The notes under the pieces: generated by a model
Told to the model about the DNA's origin: nothing
The model's database searches: none
The model's input: only the letters and a program-made list of their open reading frames with translations
Source of the DNA: a virus
Lineage: Duplodnaviria > Heunggongvirae > Uroviricota > Caudoviricetes
DNA: 64,000 bases
Virus record (IMG/VR): IMGVR_UViG_3300035034_001740
Span: 12,476-76,475 of that record
Direction: 5' to 3' (one strand)
Made by a program: the position numbers and the translations under genes
Shown: piece after piece, positions 1-54,967 of the stretch
Layout of the letters: each line of letters begins with the position of its first letter
Numbering within the stretch: position 1 is the stretch's first letter

Positions 1-79
1 ACACTTATTATTTAGTCACCGAAGAAGAGATTCTTGGTCGAGTTGTTAAACAATAACATTTACGATACGTAAATTCGAT

Positions 80-122
80 CCTCACTTATGAGTATAAATA
101 TTACATAAGTGAGGATTTTTTT
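80..122 (+). terminator. Rho-independent terminator (11-bp stem cctcacttatg/cataagtgagg, 13-nt loop, T-run)
   Basis: Perfect inverted repeat 80-90/104-114 followed by attttttt. Confidence 0.6.
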
Positions 123-152
123 ATAACCACAAGTCAGCAGTTAAAAAAAGTG

Positions 153-181
153 TTGACATAATACCAATTGTGGGGTAAAAT
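153..181 (+). promoter_or_regulatory. sigma70-like promoter TTGACA-17-TAAAAT
   Basis: TTGACA 153-158, 17-nt spacer, TAAAAT 176-181, 9 nt upstream of the ATG at 190. Confidence 0.55.
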
Positions 182-189
182 GTTATCTT

Positions 190-492
190 ATGTTAGGAAA
201 GTGTCCAATTTGCGGCCGAGAAATGTCGGACGTCAACTCTAATCTTCACCATTTAGTTCCAAAACTGAAGGGTGGAAGACAGGATGATACAGTCCGATTA
301 CATATAATCTGCCATAATAAAATTCATTCCATTTGGTCAGAGAGTGAACTAATGTATCACTTCAATACAATTGATTCCATAATGGCAGATGTTCGTATGA
401 AGAAGTTTTCGAAGTGGGTATCCAAGAAGGAAACTGACTTCAATGATTCTAATAAGATGTCAAACAATCACAGACGGAGACACAGGAAATGA
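190..492 (+). CDS. HNH endonuclease (small)
   Basis: CPICG...LHHLVPKLKGG...ICHNKIH is an HNH motif; stop overlaps the next start (ATGA). Confidence 0.7.
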   Translation: MLGKCPICGREMSDVNSNLHHLVPKLKGGRQDDTVRLHIICHNKIHSIWSESELMYHFNTIDSIMADVRMKKFSKWVSKKETDFNDSNKMSNNHRRRHRK

Positions 493-893
493 CACAATAT
501 CCATATACAACTACAGGTAAAATTCGGTATGGTCGCCACAAAGATGATGGTGGTCATGGCTGGGTTGTGATCGATTGTCCTTCTGATATTGTATACTATT
601 ACAACAAAGTTTGTAACTGGTTGTTATTCAAAGGTAGGAGGATTACAACTCCACTTCACGGAGCACACATTACGGTTGTTGCTGGGAAGTATGCTGACGT
701 AGATAAAGAATTGTGGGGATACAGAGACGGTGAAGAAATTGAGTTTTCTTATGGAACAATCCAGGATAACGGCCAAAACTACTTTTGGTTGCCTGTAAAG
801 TGTGATCAAGCCAGCGAGCTTCGTAACTACTTGGGGTTGACGCCTTTACCGAAGTTCCAATTCCACTTGACAATCGGATATTTAAATGATTGA
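489..893 (+). CDS. 2H phosphoesterase (LigT-like 2'-5' RNA ligase/cyclic phosphodiesterase family)
   Basis: Two H-x-T-x motifs (HGAHITVV and FQFHLTIGY) at the spacing typical of the 2H superfamily. Confidence 0.55.
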   Translation: MTQYPYTTTGKIRYGRHKDDGGHGWVVIDCPSDIVYYYNKVCNWLLFKGRRITTPLHGAHITVVAGKYADVDKELWGYRDGEEIEFSYGTIQDNGQNYFWLPVKCDQASELRNYLGLTPLPKFQFHLTIGYLND

Positions 894-969
894 CATGAGA
901 GGAACCACTGTCTTTGACTACTGAATCTCTCAAATGACGTATATTCATTGTTAAAATAACAGGAACTAC

Positions 970-997
970 TTGACATTTCGGGTAGTTTCTTTATAGT
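970..997 (+). promoter_or_regulatory. sigma70-like promoter TTGACA-16-TATAGT
   Basis: Consensus -35 and a good -10 upstream of the ORF at 1073. Confidence 0.45.
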
Positions 998-1072
998 TAT
1001 AACCGTTGACATCGATAAGATATAGATAAATCGATTGAAACATACAGTTCAATTCAACCTAGATAAAAGATA

Positions 1073-1573
1073 ATGGTTAAGAAAGAAATAGTTGAGGCTA
1101 TAAATAATAGCCCGTATAAGATTTACATGGCAATCACTGGAGGTGGAACAGGTTTCATCGGTGATTTCTTAAAGTTTGGCGGAGGAAGTCAGACAATTTT
1201 GGGATATGAAGTTCCCTATCACGTTGTCGCTTTAGACCAATATATCGGTCAGAAGGTGGACAAATCCTGCAGTGAGGAAGTTGCTAATCAAATGGCAAAC
1301 GTGTCTTTTTTCAAGGCGCTAAGTATTGCTCAAATAGCTAAGCTTCCCATATCTCTGAACAAACTCATTGGGGTTGGTGTAACCGCTAGTCTCACAAGAG
1401 GTGAGAACGAACGAGAGGGTCGTTGGAATGGTGCTTACATTGCTATCAATATTGGCGCTGAAATAACCAACTATACAGTTGAGTTCGCCGACGGTACGCG
1501 AGATGAACAAGAACAGAATCTCATTGATGCAATTCTTGTTAGAGTTAGTGAGGTTATCGAAAATGGTTCTTAA
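1073..1573 (+). CDS. Hypothetical protein, possibly CinA/PncC-like (NMN deamidase fold)
   Basis: ITGGGTGFIGDFL...GGGSQTILGYEVPY loosely resembles the CinA C-terminal motifs; location in the NAD cluster. Confidence 0.3.
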   Translation: MVKKEIVEAINNSPYKIYMAITGGGTGFIGDFLKFGGGSQTILGYEVPYHVVALDQYIGQKVDKSCSEEVANQMANVSFFKALSIAQIAKLPISLNKLIGVGVTASLTRGENEREGRWNGAYIAINIGAEITNYTVEFADGTRDEQEQNLIDAILVRVSEVIENGS

Positions 1574-2102
1574 AACTCACAATATCGACTACGATTTGGA
1601 TTTGAGTAGGGTCTGGCTTTTTCCAGGTAGTTTCAATCCACTTCACTATGGTCACACCGATATTCTTCGTAAGGTTACTATGGAATATGGATATTCTGTA
1701 TTTGAGATTAGTAAGACTAACGTTGATAAACCTACACTTGATGATTCTGAGATTGATCGTCGGTTAGAATTGTTTGGAGAATATCCAGCTATTATCACAG
1801 ATGCTCCTAAGTTTGTTGATAAGGTCAATTACGGAGCCAGAAACTTTGTGATTGGTGCTGATACACTTTTTCGTATCATATGGCGTTTTCCTGTACAAGA
1901 TATCATGGATTTACACGACAATGACGTAAAGTTTGTAGTGTCTCCGAGGAACGACATGATTGAAGATGGTGATATATACCGTTTTACATGTGAACTTCCA
2001 AAACAGTGTAGAATAATGATTGACAAAATGATAGTAGGTGTGTTAGATTATAATAACACCATTAGTAGTACACAATTACGAGAACACAACAATGAAAAAT
2101 AA
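1563..2102 (+). CDS. Nicotinate/nicotinamide mononucleotide adenylyltransferase, NadD-like
   Basis: GSFNPLHYGH (HxGH nucleotidyltransferase motif) and C-terminal ISSTQLR as in NadD; start chosen at the ATG overlapping the upstream stop (the six-frame ORF begins at 1479). Confidence 0.7.
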   Translation: MVLKTHNIDYDLDLSRVWLFPGSFNPLHYGHTDILRKVTMEYGYSVFEISKTNVDKPTLDDSEIDRRLELFGEYPAIITDAPKFVDKVNYGARNFVIGADTLFRIIWRFPVQDIMDLHDNDVKFVVSPRNDMIEDGDIYRFTCELPKQCRIMIDKMIVGVLDYNNTISSTQLREHNNEK

Positions 2103-2979
2103 ACATACAGTTATAATCGGTCGTTTTCAACGGCCAACTATTAATCCCATACTTGATGAATTCATTGAGGATAAACTCACGGAATCTGGCGGAGTTCTAA
2201 TCCTTGTAGGTTTGGCTCATATCAAAGCTACACTCAAGAATCCAATGGATTTTGAGACACGTAAGTTCATGCTTCAAGAAGCTTATCCTGATGCTACTAT
2301 CGGATACATTAAAGATGTCCGTGAGAACGAAGATTGGTCTGCCAACCTCGATGAACAAGTAGATCGGTATGCTAAGAAGAATAAAGTAACAGTTGATGAC
2401 ATTGAAATTTTCGGTGGTAAAGAAACTGTACTGCCACAATACACAGGCGACAATATTATTTACGCTTTGCCGGCTGAAAGTTATGTCAATGAGAACATTA
2501 AAATTGAAGTTCCTTCGTATGCTAAACGGACATTGGAATACCGACTTGCTGTGTGTGGCATTGTCAATGAAAAATACCCAACGGCCTTTTCGACAGTTGA
2601 TGTCGCTGTTTTCAAAGGTGACAAGTTGTTATTGGCACGCAAACCAAATGAGACATTGTTTCGTTTCATTGGTGGGTTCGTTGACCCACGAGAAACTTCA
2701 ACACAAGCTGCTATTCGTGAGGTTATGGAAGAAGCTAATATCGACATTGACAATGTAACATATATTGACGAATTTGTCATTGATGATTGGAGGTACCGTG
2801 CAGAAAGTGATAGTATTAAATCGACTCTGTTTACAGCTGTGTATACAGATGGCAATCCAACTCCACAGGATGATATTGAAGAACTACGGTTATTTGATGT
2901 TGGGAAGATTACGCCTGATATGATAGTTCCTGAACATGTTCCGTTGTTTAACACATTGGTATTTTTAGGAGATATTTAA
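2092..2979 (+). CDS. NadM-like domain + Nudix hydrolase (NatV-like bifunctional protein; N-domain lacks HxGH)
   Basis: N-terminal GRFQ motif of NadM-type NMNATs but RPTINP where PFHxGH would be; C-terminal Nudix box GGFVDPRETSTQAAIREVMEEANI. Confidence 0.7.
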   Translation: MKNKHTVIIGRFQRPTINPILDEFIEDKLTESGGVLILVGLAHIKATLKNPMDFETRKFMLQEAYPDATIGYIKDVRENEDWSANLDEQVDRYAKKNKVTVDDIEIFGGKETVLPQYTGDNIIYALPAESYVNENIKIEVPSYAKRTLEYRLAVCGIVNEKYPTAFSTVDVAVFKGDKLLLARKPNETLFRFIGGFVDPRETSTQAAIREVMEEANIDIDNVTYIDEFVIDDWRYRAESDSIKSTLFTAVYTDGNPTPQDDIEELRLFDVGKITPDMIVPEHVPLFNTLVFLGDI

Positions 2980-2980
2980 T

Positions 2981-3634
2981 ATGAAGACAATAACATTAAT
3001 TAGACACGGACAATCGTTGGGTAATATTAACTCAACGTATTACGTTACAACTCCAGATTGGAAGATTCCTCTATCAGATACAGGAAGAAGTCAAGCCGAA
3101 GACGTTGGGAAGAAATTGGCTATCCATCTTCAATCCACTTCGGCGGCTTTATATTTCTCTCCGATGTATCGTGCTAAGGAAACATTTGAATTGATGAAGT
3201 CGTCAATTATTTCCAACTTGAGTTCGATTCGTGAAGAACCTCTTGTATCTGAACAGTCGTTCGGTATGCCCAATTCATATACTAACGAATTTGGCAATAT
3301 AGAGATGATGGAAGTGAGAGAATCATATGGTTCATTTTATTATTGTCCACCGGATGGTGAAAGTACATTGGATGTATTAATGCGAGGTAAACGATTCTTA
3401 GATGAAATTGAAAAACGTGGACATGACAACACAGTTGTTGTGACACACGGATCATTTATGAAAGTTATTTTAATGGAACTTTTAGGATGGGATGTTGAAT
3501 ATTTTGACCGCGTTAAACGGCCGGATAACTGCCAAATAATTCACCTTCAAGGTGAGTTTCTAGGTAGTTGGCATTGTTCAGAAGAAATGAAATTCAGAAA
3601 ACGTAAAATAAAGGATCACGGAGATTACGCTTAA
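2981..3634 (+). CDS. Histidine phosphatase family protein (phosphoglycerate mutase-like)
   Basis: LIRHGQSLGN (RHG catalytic motif) and a conserved His in VVVTHGSF. Confidence 0.7.
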   Translation: MKTITLIRHGQSLGNINSTYYVTTPDWKIPLSDTGRSQAEDVGKKLAIHLQSTSAALYFSPMYRAKETFELMKSSIISNLSSIREEPLVSEQSFGMPNSYTNEFGNIEMMEVRESYGSFYYCPPDGESTLDVLMRGKRFLDEIEKRGHDNTVVVTHGSFMKVILMELLGWDVEYFDRVKRPDNCQIIHLQGEFLGSWHCSEEMKFRKRKIKDHGDYA

Positions 3635-3638
3635 AATT

Positions 3639-3875
3639 ATGAAAGAAACAATTACAGTTACATATAATCAATCTGATATTCTAAAACTTGTCGAAATTGA
3701 CATGCAAAATCGAGGATATTATGATATCGGTAAGTTGGCCGTTTCCGTGTTTGTTGGGCGGTATCCTGACTCTGGGACTGATAAAATCGATAGCATTTCG
3801 ACAACTGCTTCTAAGGGTGAGCCGACAGTTAAGATGTCGACGGGGAGTGGAACGTCTCCACTCACAGACTATTGA
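3639..3875 (+). CDS. Hypothetical protein
   Basis: ORF in the operon frame; no recognisable motifs. Confidence 0.3.
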   Translation: MKETITVTYNQSDILKLVEIDMQNRGYYDIGKLAVSVFVGRYPDSGTDKIDSISTTASKGEPTVKMSTGSGTSPLTDY

Positions 3876-3989
3876 GAGAGATTCCCGACCGTTCGGAGGT
3901 CATTAAAAAACTTGAAAATACCCTTGACTTTGGGGATAAACCTATCACTATTATAAACATACTCCTGATATAGATAAGGAAAACACAAA

Positions 3990-5444
3990 ATGAATAAAGA
4001 TACACAAACAATAATTAACCCATTCGATATCATCGATGATACCGATTCCTATAAATGTACACACCACATCGGACTCAATAAAGAGGCCGTAACTGATTAC
4101 CTTGAGGCCCGTGTGGGTGCTCAATTTCCCGAAACCGTAGTTTACGGTGTAAGTGAAATGCTTGAGGGACTCGCTAACGTTCGTATCACACAAGATATGA
4201 TTGAAGAAGAGGCGATCCGCTGTAAGTTTCACTTTTTTGGAAATGAGAAGCTTTTTAACCGAGAAATGTGGGAGTATATCGTCAATGAATTTGACGGAAA
4301 ACTACCCGTTCGAATTTCATCGGTCGACGAGGGAACTGTTGTTCCAGTTGACAACGTAATGCTTCAGATTGAGAACCTTGGAGGCAAGTTAACTGCTGCA
4401 CTTCCAGGTCACCTTGAAACTTTCTTCCTACGAGTATGGTATCCAATGACGGTTGCCACAAAGAGTCGCGAGGTTAAGAAGATTCTTAAGAGGTATCTCG
4501 ACCTAACATCTGACGATGCCAGTCTGTTGCCATTCATGCTTCACGACTTCGGTGCTCGTGGCACAACTAACCAACAAGCTGCTGCTACAGGTGGAAGTGC
4601 TCACCTTATCAACTTCCTTGGAACTGACACGAAGGTTGCTATGACACACATCAATCGTTTGTTCGGTGATTCTTACGAAGGTCTTGGTTACAGCATCTTC
4701 GCTACGGAACACAGTCTTATGACAAGTGAGGGTGAAGACGGTGAACTCAAAGTTATCCGCCGATGCATGGAACGTGTTGGTATCGGAATGAAGAGTTTCG
4801 TTGCCGATAGTTACGATTACTACCGTCACGTTGCTCAATATGTTGGTCAAGACTTGAAGGAATTTATTCTTGACCAGTATAAAGAGGCTAAGACGGTCGG
4901 CATTCCTAATAAGTACGTCATTCGTCCTGACAGTTGTACTCCAGAACACCAAACTCCAGAGGAATTGGTTGTATGGACTTACGAACAACTTGAACGTGAC
5001 TATGGTGTTACTGTCAACAGTAAGGGTTATAAGGAATTGCACCCTGCTGTCGGAGTAATCTGGGGTGACGGAATCGACATTGACGGAATCGAAAAGATTC
5101 TTGAGGCGTTGACGAATGCTGGTTACGCTACCACAACTCAAGTCTTCGGAATGGGAGGTGGATTGCTCCAGAAAGTAAATCGTGATACGATGCGGTTCGC
5201 CTTCAAATGTTGTGCTCAAATGGTTGATGGTGTGTGGGGAGACGTTCAAAAGAATCCTCTTGATACTTCTAAGAAGAGTAAGGCTGGACGACAAGCTCTC
5301 ACGAAGGATGACGCCGGAAACTTCATCACAGTTCGTGAAGACGAACTCGGTGATCGTGAAAACTTCTTAAAGGTCCACTTTGAATGTGGTGAGATTCTAA
5401 TCAAGCCAACGTTCGCTCAGATTCGTGAACGTTGTGCTTTATAA
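3990..5444 (+). CDS. nadV: Nicotinamide phosphoribosyltransferase (NAMPT)
   Basis: N-terminal DDTDSYKCTHH resembles the NAMPT DSYK motif; ~480 aa; good SD (aaggaaaac) upstream. Confidence 0.88.
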   Translation: MNKDTQTIINPFDIIDDTDSYKCTHHIGLNKEAVTDYLEARVGAQFPETVVYGVSEMLEGLANVRITQDMIEEEAIRCKFHFFGNEKLFNREMWEYIVNEFDGKLPVRISSVDEGTVVPVDNVMLQIENLGGKLTAALPGHLETFFLRVWYPMTVATKSREVKKILKRYLDLTSDDASLLPFMLHDFGARGTTNQQAAATGGSAHLINFLGTDTKVAMTHINRLFGDSYEGLGYSIFATEHSLMTSEGEDGELKVIRRCMERVGIGMKSFVADSYDYYRHVAQYVGQDLKEFILDQYKEAKTVGIPNKYVIRPDSCTPEHQTPEELVVWTYEQLERDYGVTVNSKGYKELHPAVGVIWGDGIDIDGIEKILEALTNAGYATTTQVFGMGGGLLQKVNRDTMRFAFKCCAQMVDGVWGDVQKNPLDTSKKSKAGRQALTKDDAGNFITVREDELGDRENFLKVHFECGEILIKPTFAQIRERCAL

Positions 5445-6440
5445 CTCATTATAGAACTTCCAGCCGTCGTTTTGATAAGATGTAATGTCTTTCGGAACGA
5501 CGGCTTTTTTACGTCCATCTAACCACATCCATTTTCGACCTTTGTTAGTTTTGCACAACCTCCCACGTTGCCATCCATTGTTTAGAAATTTTGATAGTTC
5601 TGTTGGGGGGATTCGTTTTTCCCGTGTTCCGTTGTGTATTGCTATTTTGGAATTTGATTTATCCTTACGATACATACCAATCACCCACTTATCGTTTAAA
5701 AACGAATTGAGTTCCGACTTTGATACCATTTTATTACTACAATTTTTATTTATCCACACCGTATCCTTAGTTGAACTGGACAGACTACCTAATACCCAAC
5801 CACTCTCTATATACTGAGGAATATCATCAACCCTCACGTTCGTTTCAACCACACCGTTATTTATTCGCTTCATACCTTTCGTCATACTGGAATAAAATTC
5901 CGACGAAATTGAGGTTCCTCGTTCCCACCCTTCGGATATGTATATGTCAAGTTCTTCCGCCGTCACTCTACGGTCTTTCCCGTTCTTGGTAATATATTTT
6001 AACCCGGCAGTTCGTTTCACTGTCATCAAATGTTTTACTTCCCCTGATTGGATACGTGGGTCGTCTTTATCAATCCTAAAACAATCACCATCTTCGCCAA
6101 TAACCATCCGCGTTTGTTTAAGATATTCGGAATACTTCACACGATACAGTTCATACAATCTGCTCTTGGATAAATTTTCACTGCGGCCGTATCCGTTGTC
6201 GTTCATCATATAATTCACGGCGCATAACAAATTCCCCTCAGACGGAAACATCCGAGTTAGTAACACATGGCATATAAAATGTTCTCTTGCTGTGAGTAAT
6301 ACCAAGTTTGATTCTGAGTTGTCACCTCCCAAACACCTCGGTATTATATGATGATTTTCGTAATATTCACCTGTGAGTTTGTTCCGGTTCAATGACTTTG
6401 AATTGTCTATGATATTGTAGTATATTTTTTTATAATTCAT
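5439..6440 (-). CDS. Free-standing HNH homing endonuclease with 5 C-terminal tandem ~25-aa repeats (x-E-L-x-x-[FY]-x-x-x-G-W-x-x-G)
   Basis: ENHHIIPRCLGGDNSESNLVLLTAREHFICH is an HNH_3 motif; repeats end ...EGWERG, ...ESGWVLG, ...DKWVIG, ...NGWQRG, ...DGWKFY; only large minus-strand gene in a plus-strand block, wedged between nadV and prs. Confidence 0.75.
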   Translation of the reverse strand: MNYKKIYYNIIDNSKSLNRNKLTGEYYENHHIIPRCLGGDNSESNLVLLTAREHFICHVLLTRMFPSEGNLLCAVNYMMNDNGYGRSENLSKSRLYELYRVKYSEYLKQTRMVIGEDGDCFRIDKDDPRIQSGEVKHLMTVKRTAGLKYITKNGKDRRVTAEELDIYISEGWERGTSISSEFYSSMTKGMKRINNGVVETNVRVDDIPQYIESGWVLGSLSSSTKDTVWINKNCSNKMVSKSELNSFLNDKWVIGMYRKDKSNSKIAIHNGTREKRIPPTELSKFLNNGWQRGRLCKTNKGRKWMWLDGRKKAVVPKDITSYQNDGWKFYNEL

Positions 6441-6534
6441 TCCATTTAATCCCTAATCCGTTTGCGTTTAAATATAAATAGTAGTATCTGAGTATTTTAA
6501 CTTGATATATTTTGATTTTTTTTTTAAATGACCC

Positions 6535-6562
6535 TTGACATATATAACATAAAGTGTATAGT
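6535..6562 (+). promoter_or_regulatory. sigma70-like promoter TTGACA-16-TATAGT
   Basis: Consensus hexamers; implies the prs start is at 6616 rather than 6565. Confidence 0.5.
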
Positions 6563-6615
6563 CATTGTTATATCAACAAATAAATAAAACGCATAGGATC
6601 ACATTTCTTAAATTT

Positions 6616-7569
6616 ATGTCTGAATCACAACTAAAAATCTTCTCAGGTTCGAGCAATCCGAAACTTGTAAATGAAATTTGTCGTCAACTAAAAATGGATC
6701 AGGGTGACGTATATTTACATTCATTTCCGTCTGGTGAACGGTATTGTCAATACAAAGAAAACATTCGTGGTGCTGACGTTTATATTGTTCAAAGTATGAA
6801 TTCTCCTGTGAATGATAACTTGATGGAGTTGATGGTTATGATTGATGCCGCTCGAAGAGCAAGTGCTTGTCGTATTACTGTCGTCATTCCATATATGGGT
6901 TATATTCGACAAGATCGAAAAACAAAAAGTCGAACACCTATCTCCGGTCGAATGGTTGCTGATATGTTACAAGGTGCTGGGATTGGTCGAGTGATTGGTA
7001 TGGATTTTCACTGCGCTCAGGCTCAGGGATTCTTTAGTATTCCCGTTGACCATTTGTATGCTACTCCTACCATCGTCGATTATGTGAACGGTGATGTTGA
7101 TGTGGTAGTATCTCCTGATGTAGGCGGTGTAAAACGAGCTCACGCTTTTGCTGAGACGTTGGGGTCTGAGTTTGTGTTTGTTGCTAAAAAACGAATCGAC
7201 GACACCACGGTCGAAACGAGTTCTGTGAGTGGTGACGTGGCCGGAAAGAATGTGTTAATCGTAGATGACATGACAGAGAGCGCAGGAACATTAATTTCCG
7301 CCGCCACTGCTTGTGTGTGTGCTGGTGCTTCTAAAGTGAGGTGTGCTATTACACATGGCGTATTTTCTTCAGTTGCTTATCAACGACTTAAAACTCAAGA
7401 CGTGATAGATGAATTTATCTTTACAGATACAACAATCAATGATATCATAACTCAAGACACGTTTCCATTTCTTACACAGTTGAGTGTGGCTCCAACTTTC
7501 GCTCGTGCTATTGAACGAAACCATAACAATGAAAGTATCAGTGAACTTTTTACAATAGAAGGATTTTAA
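6616..7569 (+). CDS. prs: Ribose-phosphate pyrophosphokinase (PRPP synthetase)
   Basis: MSESQLKIFSGSSNPKLVNEI matches the Prs N-terminus; PRPP-binding loop VLIVDDMTESAGTL; ~318 aa. Confidence 0.9.
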   Translation: MSESQLKIFSGSSNPKLVNEICRQLKMDQGDVYLHSFPSGERYCQYKENIRGADVYIVQSMNSPVNDNLMELMVMIDAARRASACRITVVIPYMGYIRQDRKTKSRTPISGRMVADMLQGAGIGRVIGMDFHCAQAQGFFSIPVDHLYATPTIVDYVNGDVDVVVSPDVGGVKRAHAFAETLGSEFVFVAKKRIDDTTVETSSVSGDVAGKNVLIVDDMTESAGTLISAATACVCAGASKVRCAITHGVFSSVAYQRLKTQDVIDEFIFTDTTINDIITQDTFPFLTQLSVAPTFARAIERNHNNESISELFTIEGF

Positions 7570-7572
7570 ATT

Positions 7573-8052
7573 ATGAAAAAACTAACCCAACCCCAACCAG
7601 ATTACAGATTATACATTCTGACTCGCACAGATTTGCCGTCACTTACTCCAGGGAAAGCCGCGGCTCACGTCGGCCACGCTTGTAATGCATTCGTGTATGA
7701 AAATCCCTCTGCTGAAAACCCTTCTGTAATGGAATGGGAGAACCAAAGCCCCCAAGGTTTTGGCACAACTATTACATTGGCTGCGTCGATAGATCAGATA
7801 CAATATATAGGTGAGTCGAAGTATACACCCGGTATTATTTTTGGAATTTCCACTGACCCTACATATCCTTATTATGTAGATAAAGAGATTGTTACGCTAA
7901 TCGATTCAGATGTTCACACTTTACCTCCGGAGGAAACTGATACCGGCGGTTTTGTGTGTTTTCGAAGTGAAATCACTGCTGCTTACTATTTTGGTGACGC
8001 GGAAGATGCACATTTTAGGTCTTTGGTTTCAGACCTCTCACTACTTCCTTAG
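7573..8052 (+). CDS. Peptidyl-tRNA hydrolase, PTH2 family (putative)
   Basis: LTPGKAAAHVGHACNA resembles the PTH2 GK(I/L)AAQCxHA motif; size fits. Confidence 0.45.
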   Translation: MKKLTQPQPDYRLYILTRTDLPSLTPGKAAAHVGHACNAFVYENPSAENPSVMEWENQSPQGFGTTITLAASIDQIQYIGESKYTPGIIFGISTDPTYPYYVDKEIVTLIDSDVHTLPPEETDTGGFVCFRSEITAAYYFGDAEDAHFRSLVSDLSLLP

Positions 8053-8054
8053 AC

Positions 8055-8372
8055 ATGAAAAACAAAGAAATATATGTAAAATGTGATTGTTTTTCTGAAG
8101 TACTCAATGTGGAGTATGACGAAGAAACTAAAACCTTCAGCGTCTGTATTTATACAGACTTTCCAGATAAGCTTACATTTAGAAATAGATGTAGATTCAT
8201 TTGGCGTATTATCAAAACAGGAAAACCATATGGTGACCAGATGATTATACATTATACCAAAGCTGAAGACCTAGCGGATTTCATTAACGAAATCAAAGCA
8301 CAAAGAGAAGCCTACGATGCTGCTGAACTTATTAAATCGAAAACAGATACACAAACGGAGGAACGTTCATAG
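8055..8372 (+). CDS. Hypothetical protein
   Basis: ORF only. Confidence 0.35.
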   Translation: MKNKEIYVKCDCFSEVLNVEYDEETKTFSVCIYTDFPDKLTFRNRCRFIWRIIKTGKPYGDQMIIHYTKAEDLADFINEIKAQREAYDAAELIKSKTDTQTEERS

Positions 8373-8772
8373 CTTTAGCGACCATCAATCTGGCGTTACC
8401 TGCTAATAGAATGTATTCATTTTTGTGTCTTACTACGATAGGTGCTTTCATCTTTTTAACATCGTCTTTGAAACCGTCTTTGATGTTTTTCCAATCCTTT
8501 TCGTAGGTTGGATCTTTCTTTTGGTGTTTCTGAATAGTTTGAACCATATCATAGAAAGACTCAGTTTTTGTGGAATCAGTATTTTTAAGCCGTTCCCATA
8601 CTTTTTGAGGCATCAATCGAAGTTGGCCTGACGGAAACCTATCAACAATGGTTTTCAAAGATAAATCGAACTCTTCGGCCGCAGAGCGTATAGCAGCTTC
8701 CTCATCATTCAACGACGGAATCTCCCATTTATTATCAATTTCCAACAATAACTGTTTTAACGTAATTTCCAC
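8332..8772 (-). CDS. Hypothetical protein (minus strand)
   Basis: 146-aa ORF convergent with the 8055 gene; no motifs. Confidence 0.4.
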   Translation of the reverse strand: MEITLKQLLLEIDNKWEIPSLNDEEAAIRSAAEEFDLSLKTIVDRFPSGQLRLMPQKVWERLKNTDSTKTESFYDMVQTIQKHQKKDPTYEKDWKNIKDGFKDDVKKMKAPIVVRHKNEYILLAGNARLMVAKAMNVPPFVYLFSI

Positions 8773-8839
8773 AACTATAAATACTTAAAACAAATTATTA
8801 TATGTTGACTTTCTTATTTTTTTCATAATTATTGTCCCT

Positions 8840-9877
8840 ATGTCTGAATCAGTAGCAGAAAAAAAGAGAGTGGGTGGGAAACAAAAAAAGATTTCCTATT
8901 CGCAGTTTCAAACCTATTTAAAATGTCCTCAAGCATGGAAATATGGGTATATCGACAATATGAGAACATTCGAACAAAATGTTCATTGTGCTTTTGGAAC
9001 CGCTGTTCATGAAGCTATCCAAACCTTCTTATCAGAGTTATATTACAAAGTTGATGGGTCGGATGCTAACGAAACAAAAGGTAGTCGTGCTGCTGATTCG
9101 GTAGACGTTAAGAAAATTTTCGATGATGTATTTGAGAAGGAACTCAAAAACGAATCGAGACGTTCTTGTAAGGATGAAAAAGGTGATTACATTTTAGATG
9201 ATGGAGGACAGAAGACCTATGAAACTGTGAGTGCACCCGTTGTGATTGAAGATTCTGAGAAAGAGAAATTCAGACAACACGGATATCAAATCTTGGATGC
9301 TGCTACAGGTTTAGATTCGAGACGTAAATATTTCCCACCTAAGAAGTATAAATTGTTTGGTATTGAAACTGTTATTGATATGCCAGTGTTGAACAATCTA
9401 AAATTTGTTGGGTATCTTGACATTGTGTTACAAGATGCTAATACAGGCAAATTCAAAATTATCGATTTGAAAACTTCAACTCGTATGTGGAATACGTATC
9501 AACAGAATGATGTGTTCAAGATTTATCAGTTGCTTTTGTATAAGGCGTTTTTTGCACAACAGTTCGGTGTTCCTCTAACAAAGATTGACGTTGAGTTTAT
9601 TGTGTTGAAAAGAACACTGATGGAGAACGTATCGTTTCCCGAAAGCAGACTCCAACGAATCAATCCACCTGCATCCAAAAACTTTGTTAACGAATCGGTC
9701 GCTGATTTGGTTCGTTTCGTAAAACACGGATTTACAGAAGACGGCGAATACAATTTAGAAGGTGAATTCAAAAAGAATCCACACAAAGGAAAGACACGAT
9801 ATAGTAATTGTAAGTATTGTGAATACTCCGTAAAGAATGACGGCCCATGTGACCGCAAAGAAGGAACATGCAATTAA
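8840..9877 (+). CDS. PD-(D/E)XK nuclease, Cas4/RecB-like, with C-terminal Cys cluster
   Basis: YSQFQTYLKCPQAWKY N-motif, LDIV...IIDLKTS (D...D/ExK) and CKYCEYSVKNDGPCDRKEGTC at the C-terminus. Confidence 0.6.
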   Translation: MSESVAEKKRVGGKQKKISYSQFQTYLKCPQAWKYGYIDNMRTFEQNVHCAFGTAVHEAIQTFLSELYYKVDGSDANETKGSRAADSVDVKKIFDDVFEKELKNESRRSCKDEKGDYILDDGGQKTYETVSAPVVIEDSEKEKFRQHGYQILDAATGLDSRRKYFPPKKYKLFGIETVIDMPVLNNLKFVGYLDIVLQDANTGKFKIIDLKTSTRMWNTYQQNDVFKIYQLLLYKAFFAQQFGVPLTKIDVEFIVLKRTLMENVSFPESRLQRINPPASKNFVNESVADLVRFVKHGFTEDGEYNLEGEFKKNPHKGKTRYSNCKYCEYSVKNDGPCDRKEGTCN

Positions 9878-10494: not shown

Positions 10495-11412
10495 ATGGCT
10501 GATAAAAACAATGATACGAAGTCTGATAAGAAATCTGTAAAAGATATTCAGAGTGAACTATTATATTATGATGATGTAGCATTAATTGCTGATTATTATG
10601 ACGGAGATTCAAGAAGCGAATTGGATACCTCCGTAACCTTTGGTTCTCACACGTTTAAGGTTCCTATCACTCCTGCTAATATGAAATGTAGTATTGATTT
10701 CGACTTAGCGGAACAACTGAGTAACTCTGGATATTTTTATGTACTTCATAGATTTTATGATTACGAAAGTATCAAGAATTGGATTCGGAAGAGCCAAGAT
10801 GGATTGGAAATCATATCGATTTCCTTGGGTGTACAACAGAAAGACTATGACTTCATAGACTGGTTAACGGAAATGGGTTCCCCGTTGGTAGATTATATTA
10901 CAATCGATGTTGCCCACGGTCATAGTAAGCCTGTAAAAGACATATTGAGTCATATCACTACTAAGTTCGGTGACAATGAAATAAAACCTTTTATTATTGC
11001 TGGAAATGTAATGACACGGAAGGCCGTTGAAGACCTAAACGATTGGGGTGCTGATGCTGTTAAGGTTGGTATTGGTCAAGGGAGAGTTTGTTTTCTCGGA
11101 GATACTATGGTAAATACGGTAGACGGTAGTTTGAAAATAAAAGATGTTAGAGTTGGTGACAGGGTAATAACACACACAGGAGATTATAAGGTCGTATTGG
11201 ATACAATAGAAAAGTATTCCAATGATATGATTAGTGTGAACGGAAATGTATGTACAAAGAATCACAAGTTTTATGTGATCTACAAATCCGATATTGACTC
11301 TGTAACTGATGAAAACATTCACGATTTCGCTTTTTGGTTGGAAGCCCATAAGATAACAGATGAGCATCTTTTGATAACAGTAGACCAACACCCACTCCAA
11401 AATACTCCGTGA
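10495..11412 (+). CDS. guaC-like: IMPDH/GMP reductase family protein, N-terminal fragment (N-extein 10495-11088) fused to a split-intein N-half (11089-11409)
   Basis: N-extein has ITPANM, TIDVAHGHS and IIAGNV...GADAVKVGIGQGRV, aligning with GuaC up to the catalytic Cys; then intein block A CFLGDTMVNTVDG and block B CTKNHKF; stop after ~107 intein residues. Confidence 0.8.
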   Translation: MADKNNDTKSDKKSVKDIQSELLYYDDVALIADYYDGDSRSELDTSVTFGSHTFKVPITPANMKCSIDFDLAEQLSNSGYFYVLHRFYDYESIKNWIRKSQDGLEIISISLGVQQKDYDFIDWLTEMGSPLVDYITIDVAHGHSKPVKDILSHITTKFGDNEIKPFIIAGNVMTRKAVEDLNDWGADAVKVGIGQGRVCFLGDTMVNTVDGSLKIKDVRVGDRVITHTGDYKVVLDTIEKYSNDMISVNGNVCTKNHKFYVIYKSDIDSVTDENIHDFAFWLEAHKITDEHLLITVDQHPLQNTP

Positions 11413-11643
11413 TTCTCAGTTATAATCAATATGACTTCGGATTCTGAGGTGAAAGAATTTTATACTGGGAGTGTGATATACGAACAGTAAATTTTAAAGT
11501 ACTAGATGAAATAGAAAATGAAATACAAATTTATAGAACCGGAAATAAGTAAAGTTGAATATGAGTTTGATATTCCTGTATACGATCTAGAGATTGAGAG
11601 TGACCATTCATACTGTGTCGGTGAAAATATCATAGCACATAAC
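11089..11643 (+). mobile_element. Split mini-intein in the IMPDH/GMPR gene (IntN 11089-11412, 105-nt gap, IntC 11518-11643)
   Basis: Blocks A and B in IntN; IntC MKYKFIEPEISKVEYEFDIPVYDLEIESDHSYCVGENIIAHN ends in HN followed by +1 Cys (CSTKLKTG matches the GuaC catalytic loop). Confidence 0.8.
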
Positions 11644-12360
11644 TGCAGCACTAAACTCAAAACAGGTTTCACGTGTCCAATGTTTTCTTGTGTTAAACGG
11701 TGTTCTACTCCGATCCATGACGATTTGGAATCCGTTCGGAGTGAGATTCAGACTACAATCTATAATGAAATTAAGCGTGAGTTACACAATCGCCATCCGT
11801 ATATGCCAGTGCGGATATCGGTTGATACCGTATACTCCACCTTACACTATATTAACAATTTGTTGGTTCCTGTGTCGGGTGAGCCAGACAAAATCGACCC
11901 CGACACCATAAAAACGGCAATACAGGTTGAACTACAACGGAGAGTCGATGAAATTACATCAAATAGAATTCCAATCATCGCTGACGGTGGAATGTCTGAG
12001 AACGGAGACATTGTTAAAGCTATTCGTGCTGGAGCAAGTATGACAATGGCTGGAGGTATGTTTGCTGCTTGTGAAGACTCTCCTGCTGAGAATGTGTATG
12101 AGAGCCGTGAAACTACCGAAGGTGTGGATGTGGATATACCACATAAAATAATTAAAAAAAGGTATTATGGTTCTGCCAGCGAAGAGAATAAGGGGCATAA
12201 GAAAAATGTGGAAGGTTTCTTAACAGAACTCAATTGTAACGGATTTACGTATTTAGAAAAACTCGAAGAAATCCAAGGCGATTTACAAAGCGCTATAAGT
12301 TACGCAGGCGGCTCTGGGTTGGATAATCTCAGAGAAGTTGATTACTATATTCTCCGTTAG
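11518..12360 (+). CDS. guaC-like: Split-intein C-half (42 aa) fused to the IMPDH/GMP reductase C-terminal fragment (C-extein 11644-12360)
   Basis: IntC blocks F and G (VYDLEIESDHSYCVGENIIAHN), then CSTKLKTGF...ADGGMSENGDIVKAIRAGASMTMAGGMFA, aligning with the GuaC C-half. Confidence 0.8.
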   Translation: MKYKFIEPEISKVEYEFDIPVYDLEIESDHSYCVGENIIAHNCSTKLKTGFTCPMFSCVKRCSTPIHDDLESVRSEIQTTIYNEIKRELHNRHPYMPVRISVDTVYSTLHYINNLLVPVSGEPDKIDPDTIKTAIQVELQRRVDEITSNRIPIIADGGMSENGDIVKAIRAGASMTMAGGMFAACEDSPAENVYESRETTEGVDVDIPHKIIKKRYYGSASEENKGHKKNVEGFLTELNCNGFTYLEKLEEIQGDLQSAISYAGGSGLDNLREVDYYILR

Positions 12361-12486: not shown

Positions 12487-12504
12487 ACACACGGACGTTA
12501 GTGT
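12487..12504 (+). promoter_or_regulatory. ACAC-N8-GTGT palindrome (NrdR-box-like) overlapping a TTGACA -35 element upstream of nrdJ
   Basis: ACACACGGACGTTAGTGT has the ACAC...GTGT ends of the 16-bp NrdR box; TTGACA at 12484-12489. Confidence 0.3.
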
Positions 12505-12541
12505 GTTTTTGTTATCTAACATTAGAAAAAAAAAAGAAATT

Positions 12542-13174: not shown

Positions 13175-13441
13175 TTGTTTGTCGTCGATGATACATTACA
13201 TCACGTAGACTTTTACATACTTGAAATTGATACTGTTGTAGATTTGACTACTGACACATGAATCCACTAAAATATAATAAGAATGGATATCGACAACGGA
13301 ATTTAAACAATTATTGCAAGAGAAAAAATATTTATGAGAATTAAGAAAAAAGAATATATTGAAGATGACATTAACTACTGGGATATAACAGTACCGGAAC
13401 ATCACAACTTCGTATTGGCTAATGGGGCAGTGGTTCATAAC
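12878..13441 (+). mobile_element. nrdJ split mini-intein 1 (IntN 12878-13174, gap, IntC 13334-13441)
   Basis: IntC MRIKKKEYIEDDINYWDITVPEHHNFVLANGAVVHN (blocks F/G) then +1 Cys of CGCGTGFS (the RNR GGGxGFS motif region). Confidence 0.8.
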
Positions 13442-14494: not shown

Positions 14495-14701
14495 AAACTG
14501 AATATGGTCTGAGTGCTGTGATTGTGGATGACATCACAACTTATTGTGGGGCCAACTATGAAAACGAACTTAAAAAAAATGGAAATTAATAAAAAAATTA
14601 AAAAAATAAAACGAATCTCAATTATATCAAATCAAGATGTATACGATATAACGGTAAACAATACCCATAACTTTTTTGCCAATGGGACTTTAGTTCATAA
14701 C
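14096..14701 (+). mobile_element. nrdJ split mini-intein 2 (IntN 14096-14494, gap, IntC ending 14701); inserted at the NPC(V)E radical-Cys motif
   Basis: IntC ...ISIISNQDVYDITVNNTHNFFANGTLVHN then +1 Cys; the spliced product reads ILYNP-CVEIGF, i.e. the N-P-C-x-E thiyl-radical motif. Confidence 0.8.
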
Positions 14702-19200: not shown

Positions 19201-19209
19201 TTCAATCAT

Positions 19210-54469: not shown

Positions 54470-54967
54470 ATGATATCAGAAAGAACAGTAGACATTTTCG
54501 AACAAGATGATTTGGATATCATCTTCCACCAAGCTAATTGTATGTGTACTATGGGAAGTGGTATCGCTAAAATAATCCGTGAACGATTCCCAGAAGCGTA
54601 TGAAGCCGATTGTAAAACCGTTAAGGGTGACTTGTCGAAGTTGGGTAGTTACTCAGTGGGACATATATGTCGTGGCGGAATGAATATGGTTATTATCAAC
54701 TTATACGGACAAGGAAATTTTACGAATCGCAAGATAGGAAAACGTGATACGAGTTATGACGCTTTGTATGACGCGATGAAACTTGCTTTGACTAATCTGG
54801 TAAAAGAGATGCCGGATGAGTTGAAAGACAAACGATATAAAATCGGAATCCCACACGGTATGGGTTGTGCACTCGGAGGCGGATCATGGATTGTGGTTCG
54901 TGCTATGGTTGAAGACATATTTTCCGACTGTGAATTTGATGTTGTAATTTGTAAACTACCACAGTAA
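54470..54967 (+). CDS. Macro domain protein (ADP-ribose binding/processing)
   Basis: IIFHQANCMCTMGSGIAKII resembles the Macro vNAAN...GGGV motif; the GIPHGMGCALGGGSW Gly-rich loop. Confidence 0.5.
   Translation: MISERTVDIFEQDDLDIIFHQANCMCTMGSGIAKIIRERFPEAYEADCKTVKGDLSKLGSYSVGHICRGGMNMVIINLYGQGNFTNRKIGKRDTSYDALYDAMKLALTNLVKEMPDELKDKRYKIGIPHGMGCALGGGSWIVVRAMVEDIFSDCEFDVVICKLPQ

What the first reader, a model, noticed from the sequence alone, without database searches (positions are those of the whole stretch)
1073..7569. NAD+ reconstitution module: NadV + NadD-like NMNAT + NadM-Nudix + Prs (+ histidine phosphatase, CinA-like)
**What the sequence shows.** Six adjacent genes:
- a possible CinA/PncC-like protein;
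- a NadD-like adenylyltransferase (GSFNPLHYGH...ISSTQLR);
- a NadM-like+Nudix protein;
- a histidine phosphatase (RHG);
- NAMPT/NadV;
- PRPP synthetase.
The block is interrupted only by a minus-strand HNH endonuclease.

**Established knowledge.** A NadV+NMNAT (NatV) pathway was first seen in vibriophage KVP40. Such phage NAD+ reconstitution pathways have recently been shown to counter NAD+-depleting defences (TIR/Thoeris, DSR, SEFIR).

**Inference.** Supplying Prs (PRPP is the NadV co-substrate) plus ADP-ribose-processing enzymes elsewhere in the window suggests an expanded, self-sufficient anti-defence module. The Nudix domain and the Macro protein at 54470 process ADP-ribose; two 2H phosphoesterases are candidates if they act on cyclic ADP-ribose-phosphate products.
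Basis: partly seen in the sequence, partly recalled or inferred. Interest (0 to 1): 0.65.

Follow-up and report, generated by a model that had tools for sequence, protein, structure and literature searches.

The report
Phage NAD+ rebuilding cluster, unusual parts
A large uncultivated phage carries a gene cluster for rebuilding NAD+ from nicotinamide (the known NARP2 type), but its usual final enzyme has lost its active-site motifs and seems to be replaced by a two-gene version of an uncharacterised enzyme family, and the cluster also makes its own sugar-phosphate precursor.

Summary

- **Pathway type.** NadV is a true nicotinamide phosphoribosyltransferase (Nampt) and Prs is a canonical class I PRPP synthetase. 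They are not the look-alike NARP1 pair Namat and Adps. The cluster is therefore NARP2-type: Nam + PRPP gives NMN, then NAD+.
- **Degenerate NadM domain.** The NadM-Nudix protein has lost both nucleotidyltransferase signature motifs (HxGH and SxTxxR). It probably acts only as a Nudix hydrolase.
- **Likely replacement adenylyltransferase.** The 'CinA-like' and 'NadD-like' genes are the two halves of one protein family that is normally a single ~370-aa fusion. The search found about 1,000 cluster representatives at E ≤ 1e-10. The CinA-like half has no match in 50,697 deposited phage records. In 22 of 43 uncultivated viral loci the fused gene lies within 8 kb of NadV. The CinA-fold half lacks the catalytic lysine of NMN deamidases.
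- **Accessories.** A genuine Prs, a histidine phosphatase, a 2H phosphoesterase and a distant Macro gene fit recycling of ADP-ribose into PRPP. The Macro protein is 41% identical to one beside the NARP1 genes of phage JG004.

The anti-defence role and the recycling loop are inferred, not shown. My verdict is a new variant of a known kind, of moderate interest.

The parts
489..893 (+). 2H-SAK phosphoesterase. It is a conserved upstream neighbour of the NAD genes; any role in opening ADP-ribose or ribose cyclic phosphates is inferred only.
   Evidence: Pfam PF22547 scores 30.5 bits against a cutoff of 27. PHROG 12204, E = 6e-20. It occupies the same position at 62-86% identity in L003, L004 and L014/15, and a 30% homologue is in L018.
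970..997 (+). Sigma-70-like promoter match (TTGACA-16-TATAGT) in the 180-nt gap before ORF3. Similar 11/12 matches lie at 153-181, 3697-3725 and 6535-6562.
   Evidence: These are consensus matches only. All four 11/12 matches lie just upstream of gene blocks.
1073..1573 (+). ORF3: a stand-alone CinA/PncC-fold protein. It corresponds to the N-terminal half of a family that is usually fused to an NMNAT domain. The catalytic Lys of NMN deamidase is absent.
   Evidence: AF2 pLDDT 97. The Foldseek top 21 PDB hits are all CinA/PncC. About four-fifths of the best 150 hits of the family search are 320-430-aa fusions. hhalign to E. coli PncC is.
1563..2102 (+). ORF4: NadD/NMNAT-type adenylyltransferase, corresponding to the C-terminal half of the same family. 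It is the probable NMN adenylyltransferase of the pathway. It overlaps the ORF3 stop by 11 nt.
   Evidence: PF01467, E = 1.1e-8. FPGSFNPxHxGH and ISSTxxR are conserved family-wide. The family profile hits S. aureus NadD 2h29 at 5.7e-9 and human NMNAT1.
2092..2979 (+). ORF5: NatV-like protein with a degenerate NadM-like N-domain and an intact Nudix box. It is a probable ADP-ribose (or related dinucleotide) pyrophosphatase.
   Evidence: Nudix, E = 1.6e-15. In alignment A4, GRFQRPTINPIL replaces GRFQPFHKGH and VN-ENIKIE replaces NATxxR. The same losses occur in L003, L004, L013 and L014.
2981..3634 (+). Histidine phosphatase (branch 1) with RHG and a second catalytic His (THG). Its substrate is unknown; a phosphorylated ADP-ribose or ribose derivative is proposed.
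   Evidence: PF00300, E = 3.5e-27. PHROG 12933. Homologues lie next to the fused NMNAT and NadV in L018 and L027 and after ORF5 in L004.
3639..3875 (+). Small ORF, a doubtful gene.
   Evidence: No family hits. It is frameshifted by a 1-nt indel at 3826 in the 99.9%-identical contig L001. It contains a promoter-like match at 3697-3725.
3990..5444 (+). NadV: nicotinamide phosphoribosyltransferase of the Nampt type, not Namat.
   Evidence: NF006629 scores 443 against 405. Scores are 298 bits to Xanthomonas Nampt 7yqo and 286 to human NAMPT, against 155 to SpβL1 Namat 9W5X.
5439..6440 (-). Free-standing HNH homing endonuclease inserted between NadV and Prs. It is not part of the pathway.
   Evidence: PHROG 655, E = 2.8e-40. 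It is absent from the syntenic NadV-Prs interval of L014/15.
6616..7569 (+). Prs: canonical class I ribose-phosphate pyrophosphokinase (PRPP synthetase), not Adps.
   Evidence: NF002320 scores 360 against 297 over profile positions 3-315 of 316. E. coli, B. subtilis and human Prs score E = 1e-73 to 1e-69, aligned to the C-terminus. Only 26% identity and 63 bits to JG004 Adps.
7573..8052 (+). PTH2-like ORF, a conserved downstream neighbour. Membership in the module is uncertain.
   Evidence: PF01981, E = 4e-5. It follows NadV or Prs in L013 and L014/15 and is nearby in L036.
54470..54967 (+). Macro-domain protein 47 kb from the cluster. It is a candidate ADP-ribose-1''-phosphate phosphatase (Adpp-like).
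   Evidence: It is 41% identical (E = 1e-22) to the JG004 'phosphatase' two genes from Adps-Namat. Homologues at 34-36% identity lie beside the fused NMNAT and NadV in L018, L038 and L043. The Pfam Macro hit is below its cutoff.

Best explanation
This is an extended NARP2-type NAD+ reconstitution cluster of a large, probably jumbo, uncultivated phage.

**Core pathway.** The enzyme families are shown by sequence; the chemistry is inferred from them.
- NadV condenses nicotinamide with PRPP to give NMN.
- ORF4, a NadD/NMNAT-type adenylyltransferase, probably acts together with the CinA-fold protein ORF3, to which it is fused in most relatives. It adenylylates NMN to NAD+.
- The ancestral NMNAT domain of the NatV-like protein ORF5 has lost both ATP-site motifs. 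ORF5 now supplies mainly its Nudix hydrolase.

**Accessory loop (inferred).**
- Nudix splits ADP-ribose, the product of NADase defences, into AMP and ribose-5-phosphate.
- The phage's own canonical Prs turns ribose-5-phosphate into PRPP for NadV. The pathway then does not drain host PRPP.
- The histidine phosphatase, the 2H phosphoesterase and the distant Macro protein would convert phosphorylated or cyclic ADP-ribose derivatives, such as ADPR-1''-phosphate made by RES-type defences, into usable ADP-ribose or ribose-5-phosphate.

**ORF3.** It keeps residues that align with the phosphate-binding residues of NMN deamidases but lacks their catalytic lysine. It more likely binds or hands over NMN than deamidates it.
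For: **Nampt, not Namat.**
- The curated Nampt model is passed.
- Scores to solved Nampts are about twice those to SpβL1 Namat.
- The selectivity-clamp helix reads GGGLLQKVNRD, as in human GGGLLQKLTRD. JG004 Namat reads GSYTYQCYTRD (motif defined in PMC12774641).

**Prs, not Adps.**
- Curated Prs models are passed, with full C-terminal coverage.
- Adps proteins consistently lack the C-terminal α11-α12 module (PMC13586617).
- The window Prs has 63 bits to JG004 Adps against 249 bits to E. coli Prs.

**ORF5 motif loss.** It is conserved in five related sequences. Tunturi_5, huge-phage and canonical NadM-Nudix proteins keep both motifs.

**ORF3 and ORF4 as a split fusion.** The split is conserved in L003, L004 and L005.

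**Link of the family to NadV.**
- NadV lies within 8 kb in 22 of 43 IMG/VR loci, or 20 of about 39 non-redundant loci.
- These loci often carry a stand-alone Nudix, as in the Nudix-NadV-fusion operon of L061.
- Loci with the fused gene carry no intact NadM domain.

**Prs beside NadV** also occurs in L014/15.

**Gene organisation and literature.**
- The genes overlap or are tightly spaced, which fits co-expression.
- NARP2 is reported to counter Thoeris and DSR2 and to be costly in PRPP.
Against: - No activity has been measured for any of these proteins.
- ORF4 scores far below the curated NadD cutoffs, and on its own it hits PPAT structures about as well as NadD. Its substrate is inferred mainly from the family profile and from gene neighbourhood.
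- The Nudix domain belongs to a divergent branch that lacks the FDxPxRSxRGR stretch of characterised NadM-Nudix ADP-ribose pyrophosphatases. It also resembles NAD+ diphosphatases. It could degrade NAD(H) rather than ADP-ribose.
- The histidine phosphatase has only generic similarities: CobC, PhoE, TIGAR.
- Prs could serve general nucleotide synthesis, because the phage also encodes RNR, thymidylate synthase and dCMP deaminase.
- The fused family also occurs in Methanosarcina chromosomes without NadV nearby.
- The ORF3-PncC residue mapping rests on a weak profile alignment. E = 0.029, and the register around the nucleophile is ambiguous.
Confidence: 0.7

Rival explanations
1. The cluster is ordinary metabolic augmentation, not counter-defence. 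Prs would serve nucleotide synthesis in general.
For: - The window is rich in nucleotide-metabolism genes: RNR pieces, thymidylate synthase, dCMP deaminase, nucleoside deoxyribosyltransferase.
- NARP2 makes excess NAD+ even without a defence system.
- Near-consensus sigma-70-type promoter matches fit expression by the host RNA polymerase.
Against: - KVP40 NadV + NatV abolish Thoeris and DSR2 defence.
- The neighbours here are ADP-ribose-type processing enzymes (Nudix, 2H, Macro homologues in related loci, histidine phosphatase), not nucleotide-synthesis genes.
- The two readings do not exclude each other.
Confidence: 0.2
2. The NadV-like and Prs-like pair is NARP1. Prs would be an Adps that makes ADPR-PP, and NadV would be a Namat that joins it to nicotinamide. 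The window would then hold both NARP1 and NARP2 parts.
For: - Adps and Namat are routinely annotated as Prs and NAMPT.
- The two genes are neighbours.
- The Prs-like protein matches PHROG 619, 'ribose-phosphate pyrophosphokinase', at E = 1.4e-45.
Against: - Both genes pass the curated cutoffs for the canonical enzymes.
- The clamp-helix motif is Nampt-type.
- The C-terminal module missing from Adps is present.
- Similarity to JG004 Adps and Namat is low: 26% and 27-34% in partial alignments.
- The authors found no phage with both pathways.
Confidence: 0.03
3. ORF3 and ORF4 form a deamidating route. ORF3 is an active PncC that turns NMN into NaMN. ORF4 is a NadD that makes NaAD. Host NadE finishes NAD+.
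For: - ORF3 has the CinA/PncC fold.
- The ORF4 family profile is closest to bacterial NadD.
- JGI annotates some fused members as 'NaMN adenylyltransferase / NMN deamidase PncC'.
- Residues aligning with the phosphate-binding Ser, Tyr and Arg of PncC are conserved.
Against: - The catalytic Lys (Tyr + 5) is Leu here and Phe in the family consensus. This lies in the best-aligned stretch. K63A abolishes activity in AtCinA.
- The nucleophile Ser aligns to Ala or Thr, depending on the register.
- There is no PF02464 hit.
- Inactive CinA paralogues are known.
- A detour through NaAD would make a counter-defence pathway depend on host NadE and glutamine.
Confidence: 0.1
4. ORF5 is still the working NMNAT despite its altered motifs. 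ORF3 and ORF4 would adenylylate or bind something else, for example a phosphopantetheine- or ADP-ribose-related compound.
For: - The N-domain of ORF5 is conserved about as well as its Nudix domain across the clade (42-44% against 41-57%), so it is under selection.
- ORF4 alone hits PPAT structures weakly.
Against: - Both HIGH-superfamily signature motifs are gone in all five clade members.
- In most loci with the fused gene next to NadV, no NadM-like domain exists at all, only a stand-alone Nudix. The fused protein is then the only NMNAT candidate there.
Confidence: 0.07

Closest known systems
NARP2 (Nampt + bifunctional Nmnat/Nudix; Vibrio phage KVP40 NadV/NatV; Osterman et al. 2024 preprint 10.1101/2024.02.11.579819)
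   Same: It has a Nampt-type NadV, an NMNAT in the same cluster, a Nudix domain homologous to NatV, and no Adps or Namat. It would make NAD+ from nicotinamide, PRPP and ATP.
   Different: - The NatV-like protein has lost the HxGH and SxTxxR motifs.
- The NMNAT is a different, NadD/eukaryote-like enzyme paired with a CinA-fold protein.
- A canonical Prs, a histidine phosphatase and a 2H phosphoesterase are added.
NARP1 and NARP1-AP (Adps + Namat, with or without the Macro phosphatase Adpp; preprint 10.64898/2026.01.28.702374)
   Same: - The logic is the same: a core pathway is extended with enzymes that convert defence-made ADP-ribose derivatives into usable substrates.
- The window's Macro protein is 41% identical to the macro 'phosphatase' two genes from the JG004 Adps-Namat pair.
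   Different: - The Prs and NadV here are the canonical enzymes, not Adps and Namat.
- The Macro gene is 47 kb from the cluster.
- ADP-ribose would be recycled through ribose-5-phosphate and PRPP, not through ADPR-PP.
PncC/CinA NMN deamidases (E. coli PncC, A. tumefaciens CinA 2A9S, T. thermophilus CinA)
   Same: The fold is the same (TM about 0.7). Residues aligning with the Ser, Tyr and Arg that bind the NMN phosphate are conserved.
   Different: - The catalytic Lys is missing and the nucleophile Ser is not conserved.
- Identity is 12-18% and there is no Pfam CinA match.
- In most relatives the domain is fused to an NMNAT domain, an architecture absent from the NMN deamidase papers I read.
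NadD / eukaryotic NMNAT adenylyltransferases (S. aureus NadD 2H29, human NMNAT1)
   Same: It has the GSFNPxHxGH and ISSTxxR motifs. The family profile aligns over the full length to NadD.
   Different: It scores far below the curated NadD cutoffs. It is partnered with a CinA-fold domain. Its preference for NMN or NaMN is unknown.
NadM-Nudix bifunctional enzymes (Francisella 2QJT, Synechocystis 2QJO)
   Same: ORF5 has the same two-domain layout and a Nudix box ending EEANI.
   Different: The NMNAT motifs are lost, and the Nudix domain lacks the FDxPxRSxRGR stretch.

Membership tests
NARP2 | The NAMPT-family enzyme belongs to the Nampt (PRPP-using) type rather than the Namat type. | tested here: met
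   NF006629 scores 443 against a cutoff of 405. Scores are 298 and 286 bits to solved Nampts against 155 to SpβL1 Namat. The clamp helix GGGLLQKVNRD lacks the Namat aromatic residues.
NARP2 | An NMN adenylyltransferase is encoded by the same phage, classically the NadM-Nudix protein NatV. | tested here: inconclusive
   The NadM-like domain has lost HxGH and SxTxxR. A different, motif-intact NMNAT-type protein (ORF4) is adjacent. Its activity has not been measured.
NARP2 | It restores NAD+ and overcomes NAD+-depleting defence systems. | not testable with these tools
   This needs infection assays and NAD+ measurements.
NARP1 | An Adps is present: a PRPS-like enzyme that lacks the C-terminal α11-α12 module and has a remodelled PP loop. 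| tested here: not met
   The window Prs covers positions 3-315 of 316 of the Prs model and residues 3-313 of E. coli Prs. The feature is described in PMC13586617. Identity to JG004 Adps is 26%.
NARP1 | A Namat is present with the selectivity-clamp helix motif GSXΦXΦXΦTRD, aromatic at positions 3 and 7. | tested here: not met
   The window has GGGLLQKVNRD, with G at position 3 and K at position 7. The motif comes from PMC12774641.
NadM-Nudix (NatV) bifunctional NMNAT | The HIGH-superfamily motifs (H/T)xGH and SxTxxR are in the N-domain. | tested here: not met
   GRFQRPTINPIL and VN-ENIKIE occupy those positions. The same holds in L003, L004, L013 and L014. Tunturi_5, huge-phage and canonical members keep both motifs.
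NadM-Nudix (NatV) bifunctional NMNAT | A Nudix box GX5EX7REUXEEXGU is in the C-domain. | tested here: met
   The box reads GFVDPRETSTQAAIREVMEEANI, with the last G replaced by N as in Francisella NadM. PF00293, E = 1.6e-15.
PncC/CinA NMN deamidase | CinA-domain fold. | tested here: met
   The Foldseek top 21 PDB hits are all CinA/PncC, with probability 1.0 and TM 0.63-0.73. The model has pLDDT 97.
PncC/CinA NMN deamidase | Ser/Lys catalytic dyad (AtCinA S31 and K63). | tested here: not met
   The Lys position (Tyr + 5) is Leu54, and Phe in the family consensus. The Ser aligns to Ala20 or Thr22, depending on the register. The residues come from PMC5384747. The alignment statistics are weak.
Class I ribose-phosphate pyrophosphokinase (Prs) | It passes the curated family models and has the full N-terminal, PRTase and C-terminal regions. 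| tested here: met
   NF002320 scores 360 against 297. TIGR01251 scores 344 against 113. Pribosyltran_N, Pribosyltran and Pribosyl_synth are all present.
Histidine phosphatase superfamily, branch 1 | An RHG motif and a second catalytic His. | tested here: met
   The sequence has LIRHGQS at residues 6-12 and VVVTHGSF near residue 165. PF00300, E = 3.5e-27.
Adpp (NARP1-associated Macro ADPR-1''-P phosphatase) | A Macro-domain protein associated with the NAD+ reconstitution operon and active on ADPR-1''-P. | tested here: inconclusive
   It is 41% identical to the JG004 macro 'phosphatase' lying two genes from Adps-Namat. Homologues are adjacent to NadV and the fused NMNAT in L018, L038 and L043. 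In this window the gene is 47 kb away. Activity has not been tested.

The most novel reading that the evidence does not exclude
The CinA-fold + NadD-like protein, fused in most relatives and split here, is an unrecognised class of phage NMN adenylyltransferase.

- It defines a second, widespread form of NARP2 in uncultivated large phages, where it replaces NadM-type NatV.
- Its CinA-fold half would be a non-deamidating module that captures or hands over NMN.
- In this phage it sits in a closed salvage loop (2H, Macro or histidine phosphatase, then Nudix, then Prs, then NadV, then NMNAT). The loop rebuilds NAD+ from nicotinamide and from ADP-ribose or its phosphorylated derivatives without drawing on host PRPP.
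- The CinA-like half has no match in the 50,697 deposited phage records searched here. Published NARP2 surveys used similar sets of deposited genomes, so they would undercount the pathway.
Probability: 0.4. Interest if true: 0.7.

Novelty: new variant of a known kind. Interest (0 to 1): 0.55.

Why it matters
NAD+ depletion is one of the commonest bacterial anti-phage strategies. Phage NAD+ reconstitution pathways (NARP1, NARP2, NARP3) are being catalogued and considered for engineering therapeutic phages.

This locus suggests three additions:
1. NARP2 exists in a form whose last enzyme is a family not mentioned in any of the phage NAD+ papers I read. Homology searches with NatV would miss it.
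2. Phages can offset the PRPP cost of NARP2 by carrying their own Prs. A Nudix step could feed Prs from ADP-ribose.
3. A bifunctional enzyme's domain can decay after a non-orthologous replacement arrives, and related loci show the stages of that process.

The fused family also occurs in Methanosarcina and has no assigned function, so a biochemical assignment would reach beyond phages.

Tried and rejected
- **DNA similarity.** A near-identity search of the cluster against 50,697 phage records found nothing.
- **Protein searches against deposited phage records.** tblastn of ORF3 found nothing. ORF4 gave one weak hit in huge phage LR756511, which turned out to be an NMNAT domain alone with no NadV nearby.
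- **Word-indexed protein search.** It found only five ORF3 relatives. The exhaustive profile search was needed to find the family.
- **Cellular genomes.** I saw cellular distribution only through named hits in Methanosarcina.
- **AFDB fold search.** It was unavailable.
- **Sequence profile against PDB.** It detected the NadD-like half but not the CinA half, so the fold search was essential.
- **Rfam scan of 1-9000.** No riboswitch or other RNA family was found; the one match, STnc150 at E = 0.31, is chance level.
- **KVP40 biochemistry paper (PMC5388814).** It is not held, so NatV Nudix activity is cited from memory and second-hand.
- **NARP1 reading.** I considered and rejected it; see the rival explanations.
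- **SNP comparison with the 99.9%-identical contig L001.** Ten differing positions were too few to say anything about selection.

Full report
**Observation.** All the reported genes are present at window 1073-7569, on the + strand and tightly packed. The cluster runs in this order:
- ORF3, 1073-1573;
- ORF4, 1563-2102, overlapping the ORF3 stop by 11 nt;
- ORF5, 2092-2979, overlapping ORF4 by 11 nt;
- a histidine phosphatase, 2981-3634;
- a doubtful small ORF, 3639-3875;
- NadV, 3990-5444;
- an HNH homing endonuclease on the minus strand, 5439-6440;
- Prs, 6616-7569.

Pfam, PHROG and NCBIfam confirm CTP_transf_like, Nudix, His_Phos_1, NAMPT_N + NAPRTase, the three Prs domains and HNH. ORF3 has no family hit at all. 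An independent ENA contig (L001) is 99.9% identical over 9.6 kb and its gene calls are the same for every gene except the small ORF. The cluster has no near-identical DNA in 50,697 phage records.

The rest of the window points to a large phage related to the 'huge phages' and to Ralstonia jumbo phage RsoM2USA. It holds PrkA-DUF444-SpoVR, broken RNR genes with intein-like and HNH-like pieces, thymidylate synthase, dCMP deaminase and glycosyltransferases.

**NARP1 or NARP2?** A 'NadV' next to a 'Prs' is how the NARP1 enzymes Namat and Adps are usually annotated. The authors of NARP1 and NARP2 found no phage carrying both pathways. I therefore tested the pair.

NadV behaves as Nampt:
- It passes the curated Nampt model, 443 bits against a cutoff of 405.
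- It scores 298 bits to Xanthomonas Nampt and 286 to human NAMPT. It scores only 155 to SpβL1 Namat, whose entries 9W5X and 9W5W were identified from the paper's data statement.
[quoted passage not shown] The window has GGGLLQKVNRD, almost the human GGGLLQKLTRD. The Namat of Pseudomonas phage JG004 has GSYTYQCYTRD plus a long insert.

Prs behaves as a canonical PRPP synthetase:
- It passes two curated models. It aligns end to end with E. coli, B. subtilis and human enzymes at E = 1e-73 to 1e-69.
- It retains the C-terminal region. Loss of that region is described as the evolutionary signature of Adps.
- It is only 26% identical (63 bits) to JG004 Adps.

The pair is therefore Nampt + Prs, and the pathway is NARP2-type.

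**The NatV-like protein is degenerate.** I aligned ORF5 with canonical NadM-Nudix proteins (Francisella 2QJT and three phage proteins) and with its closest phage relatives (Tunturi_5 and two huge phages).
- The HIGH motif is FHKGH, or LHEGH in the close relatives. In ORF5 it reads PTINPIL.
- The second motif is NATxxR or SGTxxR. In ORF5 it reads N-ENIKIE.
- The same losses occur in the four other members of the window's clade: L003, L004, L013 and L014.
- The Nudix box is intact.
- The N-domain is still conserved at 42-44% identity against 41-57% for the Nudix domain. It has been kept for something other than adenylyl transfer.

**ORF3 and ORF4 are two halves of one family.** An exhaustive profile search with ORF3 relatives found 2,100 cluster representatives at E ≤ 1e-3 and 1,063 at E ≤ 1e-10. 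About four-fifths of the best 150 are 320-430 aa long. These longer proteins carry the ORF3-like domain at the N-terminus and a CTP_transf_like domain at the C-terminus.
- The family profile aligns over the full length to S. aureus NadD (5.7e-9) and to human NMNAT1.
- FPGSFNPxHxGH, GxDT and ISSTxxR are conserved from the window protein to the Methanosarcina homologues.
- The split into two genes is shared by the close relatives L003, L004 and L005. L013-L015 have the fusion in the same synteny.

The ORF3 model is very confident (pLDDT 97). NMN deamidases, however, use a Ser/Lys dyad, and S31A and K63A abolish activity in the Agrobacterium enzyme.
- In the best-aligned stretch, VPY....F..F.G against VTYSNEAKAQMIG, the lysine position is Leu54 here and Phe in the family consensus.
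- The serine aligns to Ala20 or Thr22, depending on the register.
- Residues aligning with the phosphate-binding Ser, Tyr and Arg are conserved.
- The alignment statistics are weak (E = 0.029), so this mapping is provisional.

**Genomic association.**
- The fused gene occurs in 43 IMG/VR loci.
- NadV lies within 8 kb in 22 of them, or 20 of about 39 non-redundant loci.
- About 13 loci have a stand-alone Nudix. One example is the Nudix-NadV-fusion operon on a 172-kb contig (L061/L016).
- A NadM-like domain accompanies the family only in the window's own clade, and there it is motif-less.
- L014/15 reproduce the window's order: HNH, 2H-SAK, fusion, ORF5, NadV, Prs, PTH2-like ORF. They lack the histidine phosphatase and the inserted HNH.
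- Histidine phosphatase homologues lie beside the fusion and NadV in L018 and L027. Macro homologues do so in L018, L038 and L043.
- The CinA-like half has no match in deposited phage genomes, and the NadD-like half has a single weak, unfused one. The two broad surveys of phage NAD+ genes I read list only NadV, NadM and NadR.
- Some JGI entries name fused members 'NaMN adenylyltransferase / NMN deamidase PncC'. NCBI calls the Methanosarcina copies hypothetical. Those copies are not next to NadV.

**Accessories.**
- A genuine Prs is rare in phage records. There are 164 matching records and 26 with near-full coverage. Most of the 30 best-listed matches are short, unannotated contigs.
- NARP2 is reported to be costly because it consumes PRPP. 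A Prs beside NadV addresses that cost directly.
- From my own knowledge of characterised NadM-Nudix enzymes, the Nudix domain cleaves ADP-ribose to AMP and ribose-5-phosphate. If it does so here, Prs closes a loop from ADP-ribose to PRPP. This is inference, because the Nudix branch here is divergent.
- The Macro protein at 54470-54967 is 41% identical to the JG004 'phosphatase' that lies two genes from Adps-Namat. That position meets the published criterion for NARP1-associated Macro proteins. [quoted passage not shown]
- The histidine phosphatase has intact catalytic motifs but only generic relatives. Its substrate is open.
- Four near-consensus sigma-70-like matches lie just upstream of gene blocks, at 153, 970, 3697 and 6535. 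No riboswitch was found.

**Conclusion.** It needs three corrections.
1. The pathway is NARP2-type, with canonical Nampt and Prs.
2. The NadM domain is probably dead.
3. The 'CinA-like' and 'NadD-like' genes together form the likely NMNAT. They are a split member of a large, uncharacterised, mostly viral family linked to NadV.

The anti-defence role and the ADP-ribose to PRPP loop are inferred. I rate this a new variant of a known kind.

Noticed in passing
window 17281-22321 (+): A PrkA/YeaG - DUF444/YeaH - SpoVR triad sits in a phage. All three have very strong Pfam hits. PrkA is 55-61% identical to genes of the 630-640 kb huge phages LR745206, LR756504 and LR756502 and of Ralstonia jumbo phage RsoM2USA.
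   Followed up: partly
window 12503-17197 (+): An RNR-like gene is broken into three ORFs (13334-14494, 14522-15490, 15533-16630) with helicase- or HNH-like pieces. An intein-like ORF precedes it (12503-13174). A cobalamin adenosyltransferase follows it (16649-17197), which hints at a B12-dependent RNR with mobile insertions.
   Followed up: no
window 10495-12360 (+): Two adjacent ORFs match the two halves of PHROG 9582 'dehydrogenase'. This looks like another split gene.
   Followed up: no
window 33591-34877 (+): A 428-aa protein has an N-terminal 2H phosphoesterase domain that also matches the anti-CBASS Acb1 family (E = 2.9e-7). It is a possible degrader of cyclic-nucleotide signals.
   Followed up: no
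window 7573-8052 (+); L013 12518-13066; L014 13538-14044; L036 4400-4828: A 159-aa ORF with a weak PTH2 (peptidyl-tRNA hydrolase 2) match is conserved immediately after NadV or Prs in related loci. It may belong to the module.
   Followed up: partly
window 3639-3875 (+): A small ORF lies between the histidine phosphatase and NadV. It is frameshifted by a 1-nt indel at 3826 in the 99.9%-identical contig L001 and contains a TTGACA-17-TATGAT match. It is probably a promoter region rather than a gene.
   Followed up: partly
L059 8001-9236 (Methanosarcina, GCA_013329655.1): The fused CinA-fold/NMNAT family is chromosomal in several Methanosarcina species. In this contig it lies a few kb from GmrSD and type I restriction genes, with no NadV nearby. 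Its cellular role is unknown.
   Followed up: partly
window 40892-41485 (+): A DUF1289 domain is fused to a ribosome hibernation factor (S30AE) domain. It is a possible translation-control gene.
   Followed up: no
window 53311-54180 (+): An R2K-clade ATP-grasp protein lies just upstream of the Macro gene.
   Followed up: no
L057 460-3980 (Pseudomonas phage JG004): The gene order is Adps - (small ORF on the opposite strand) - Namat - small ORF - Macro 'phosphatase'. This looks like a NARP1-with-phosphatase arrangement in a well-known Pakpunavirus.
   Followed up: partly
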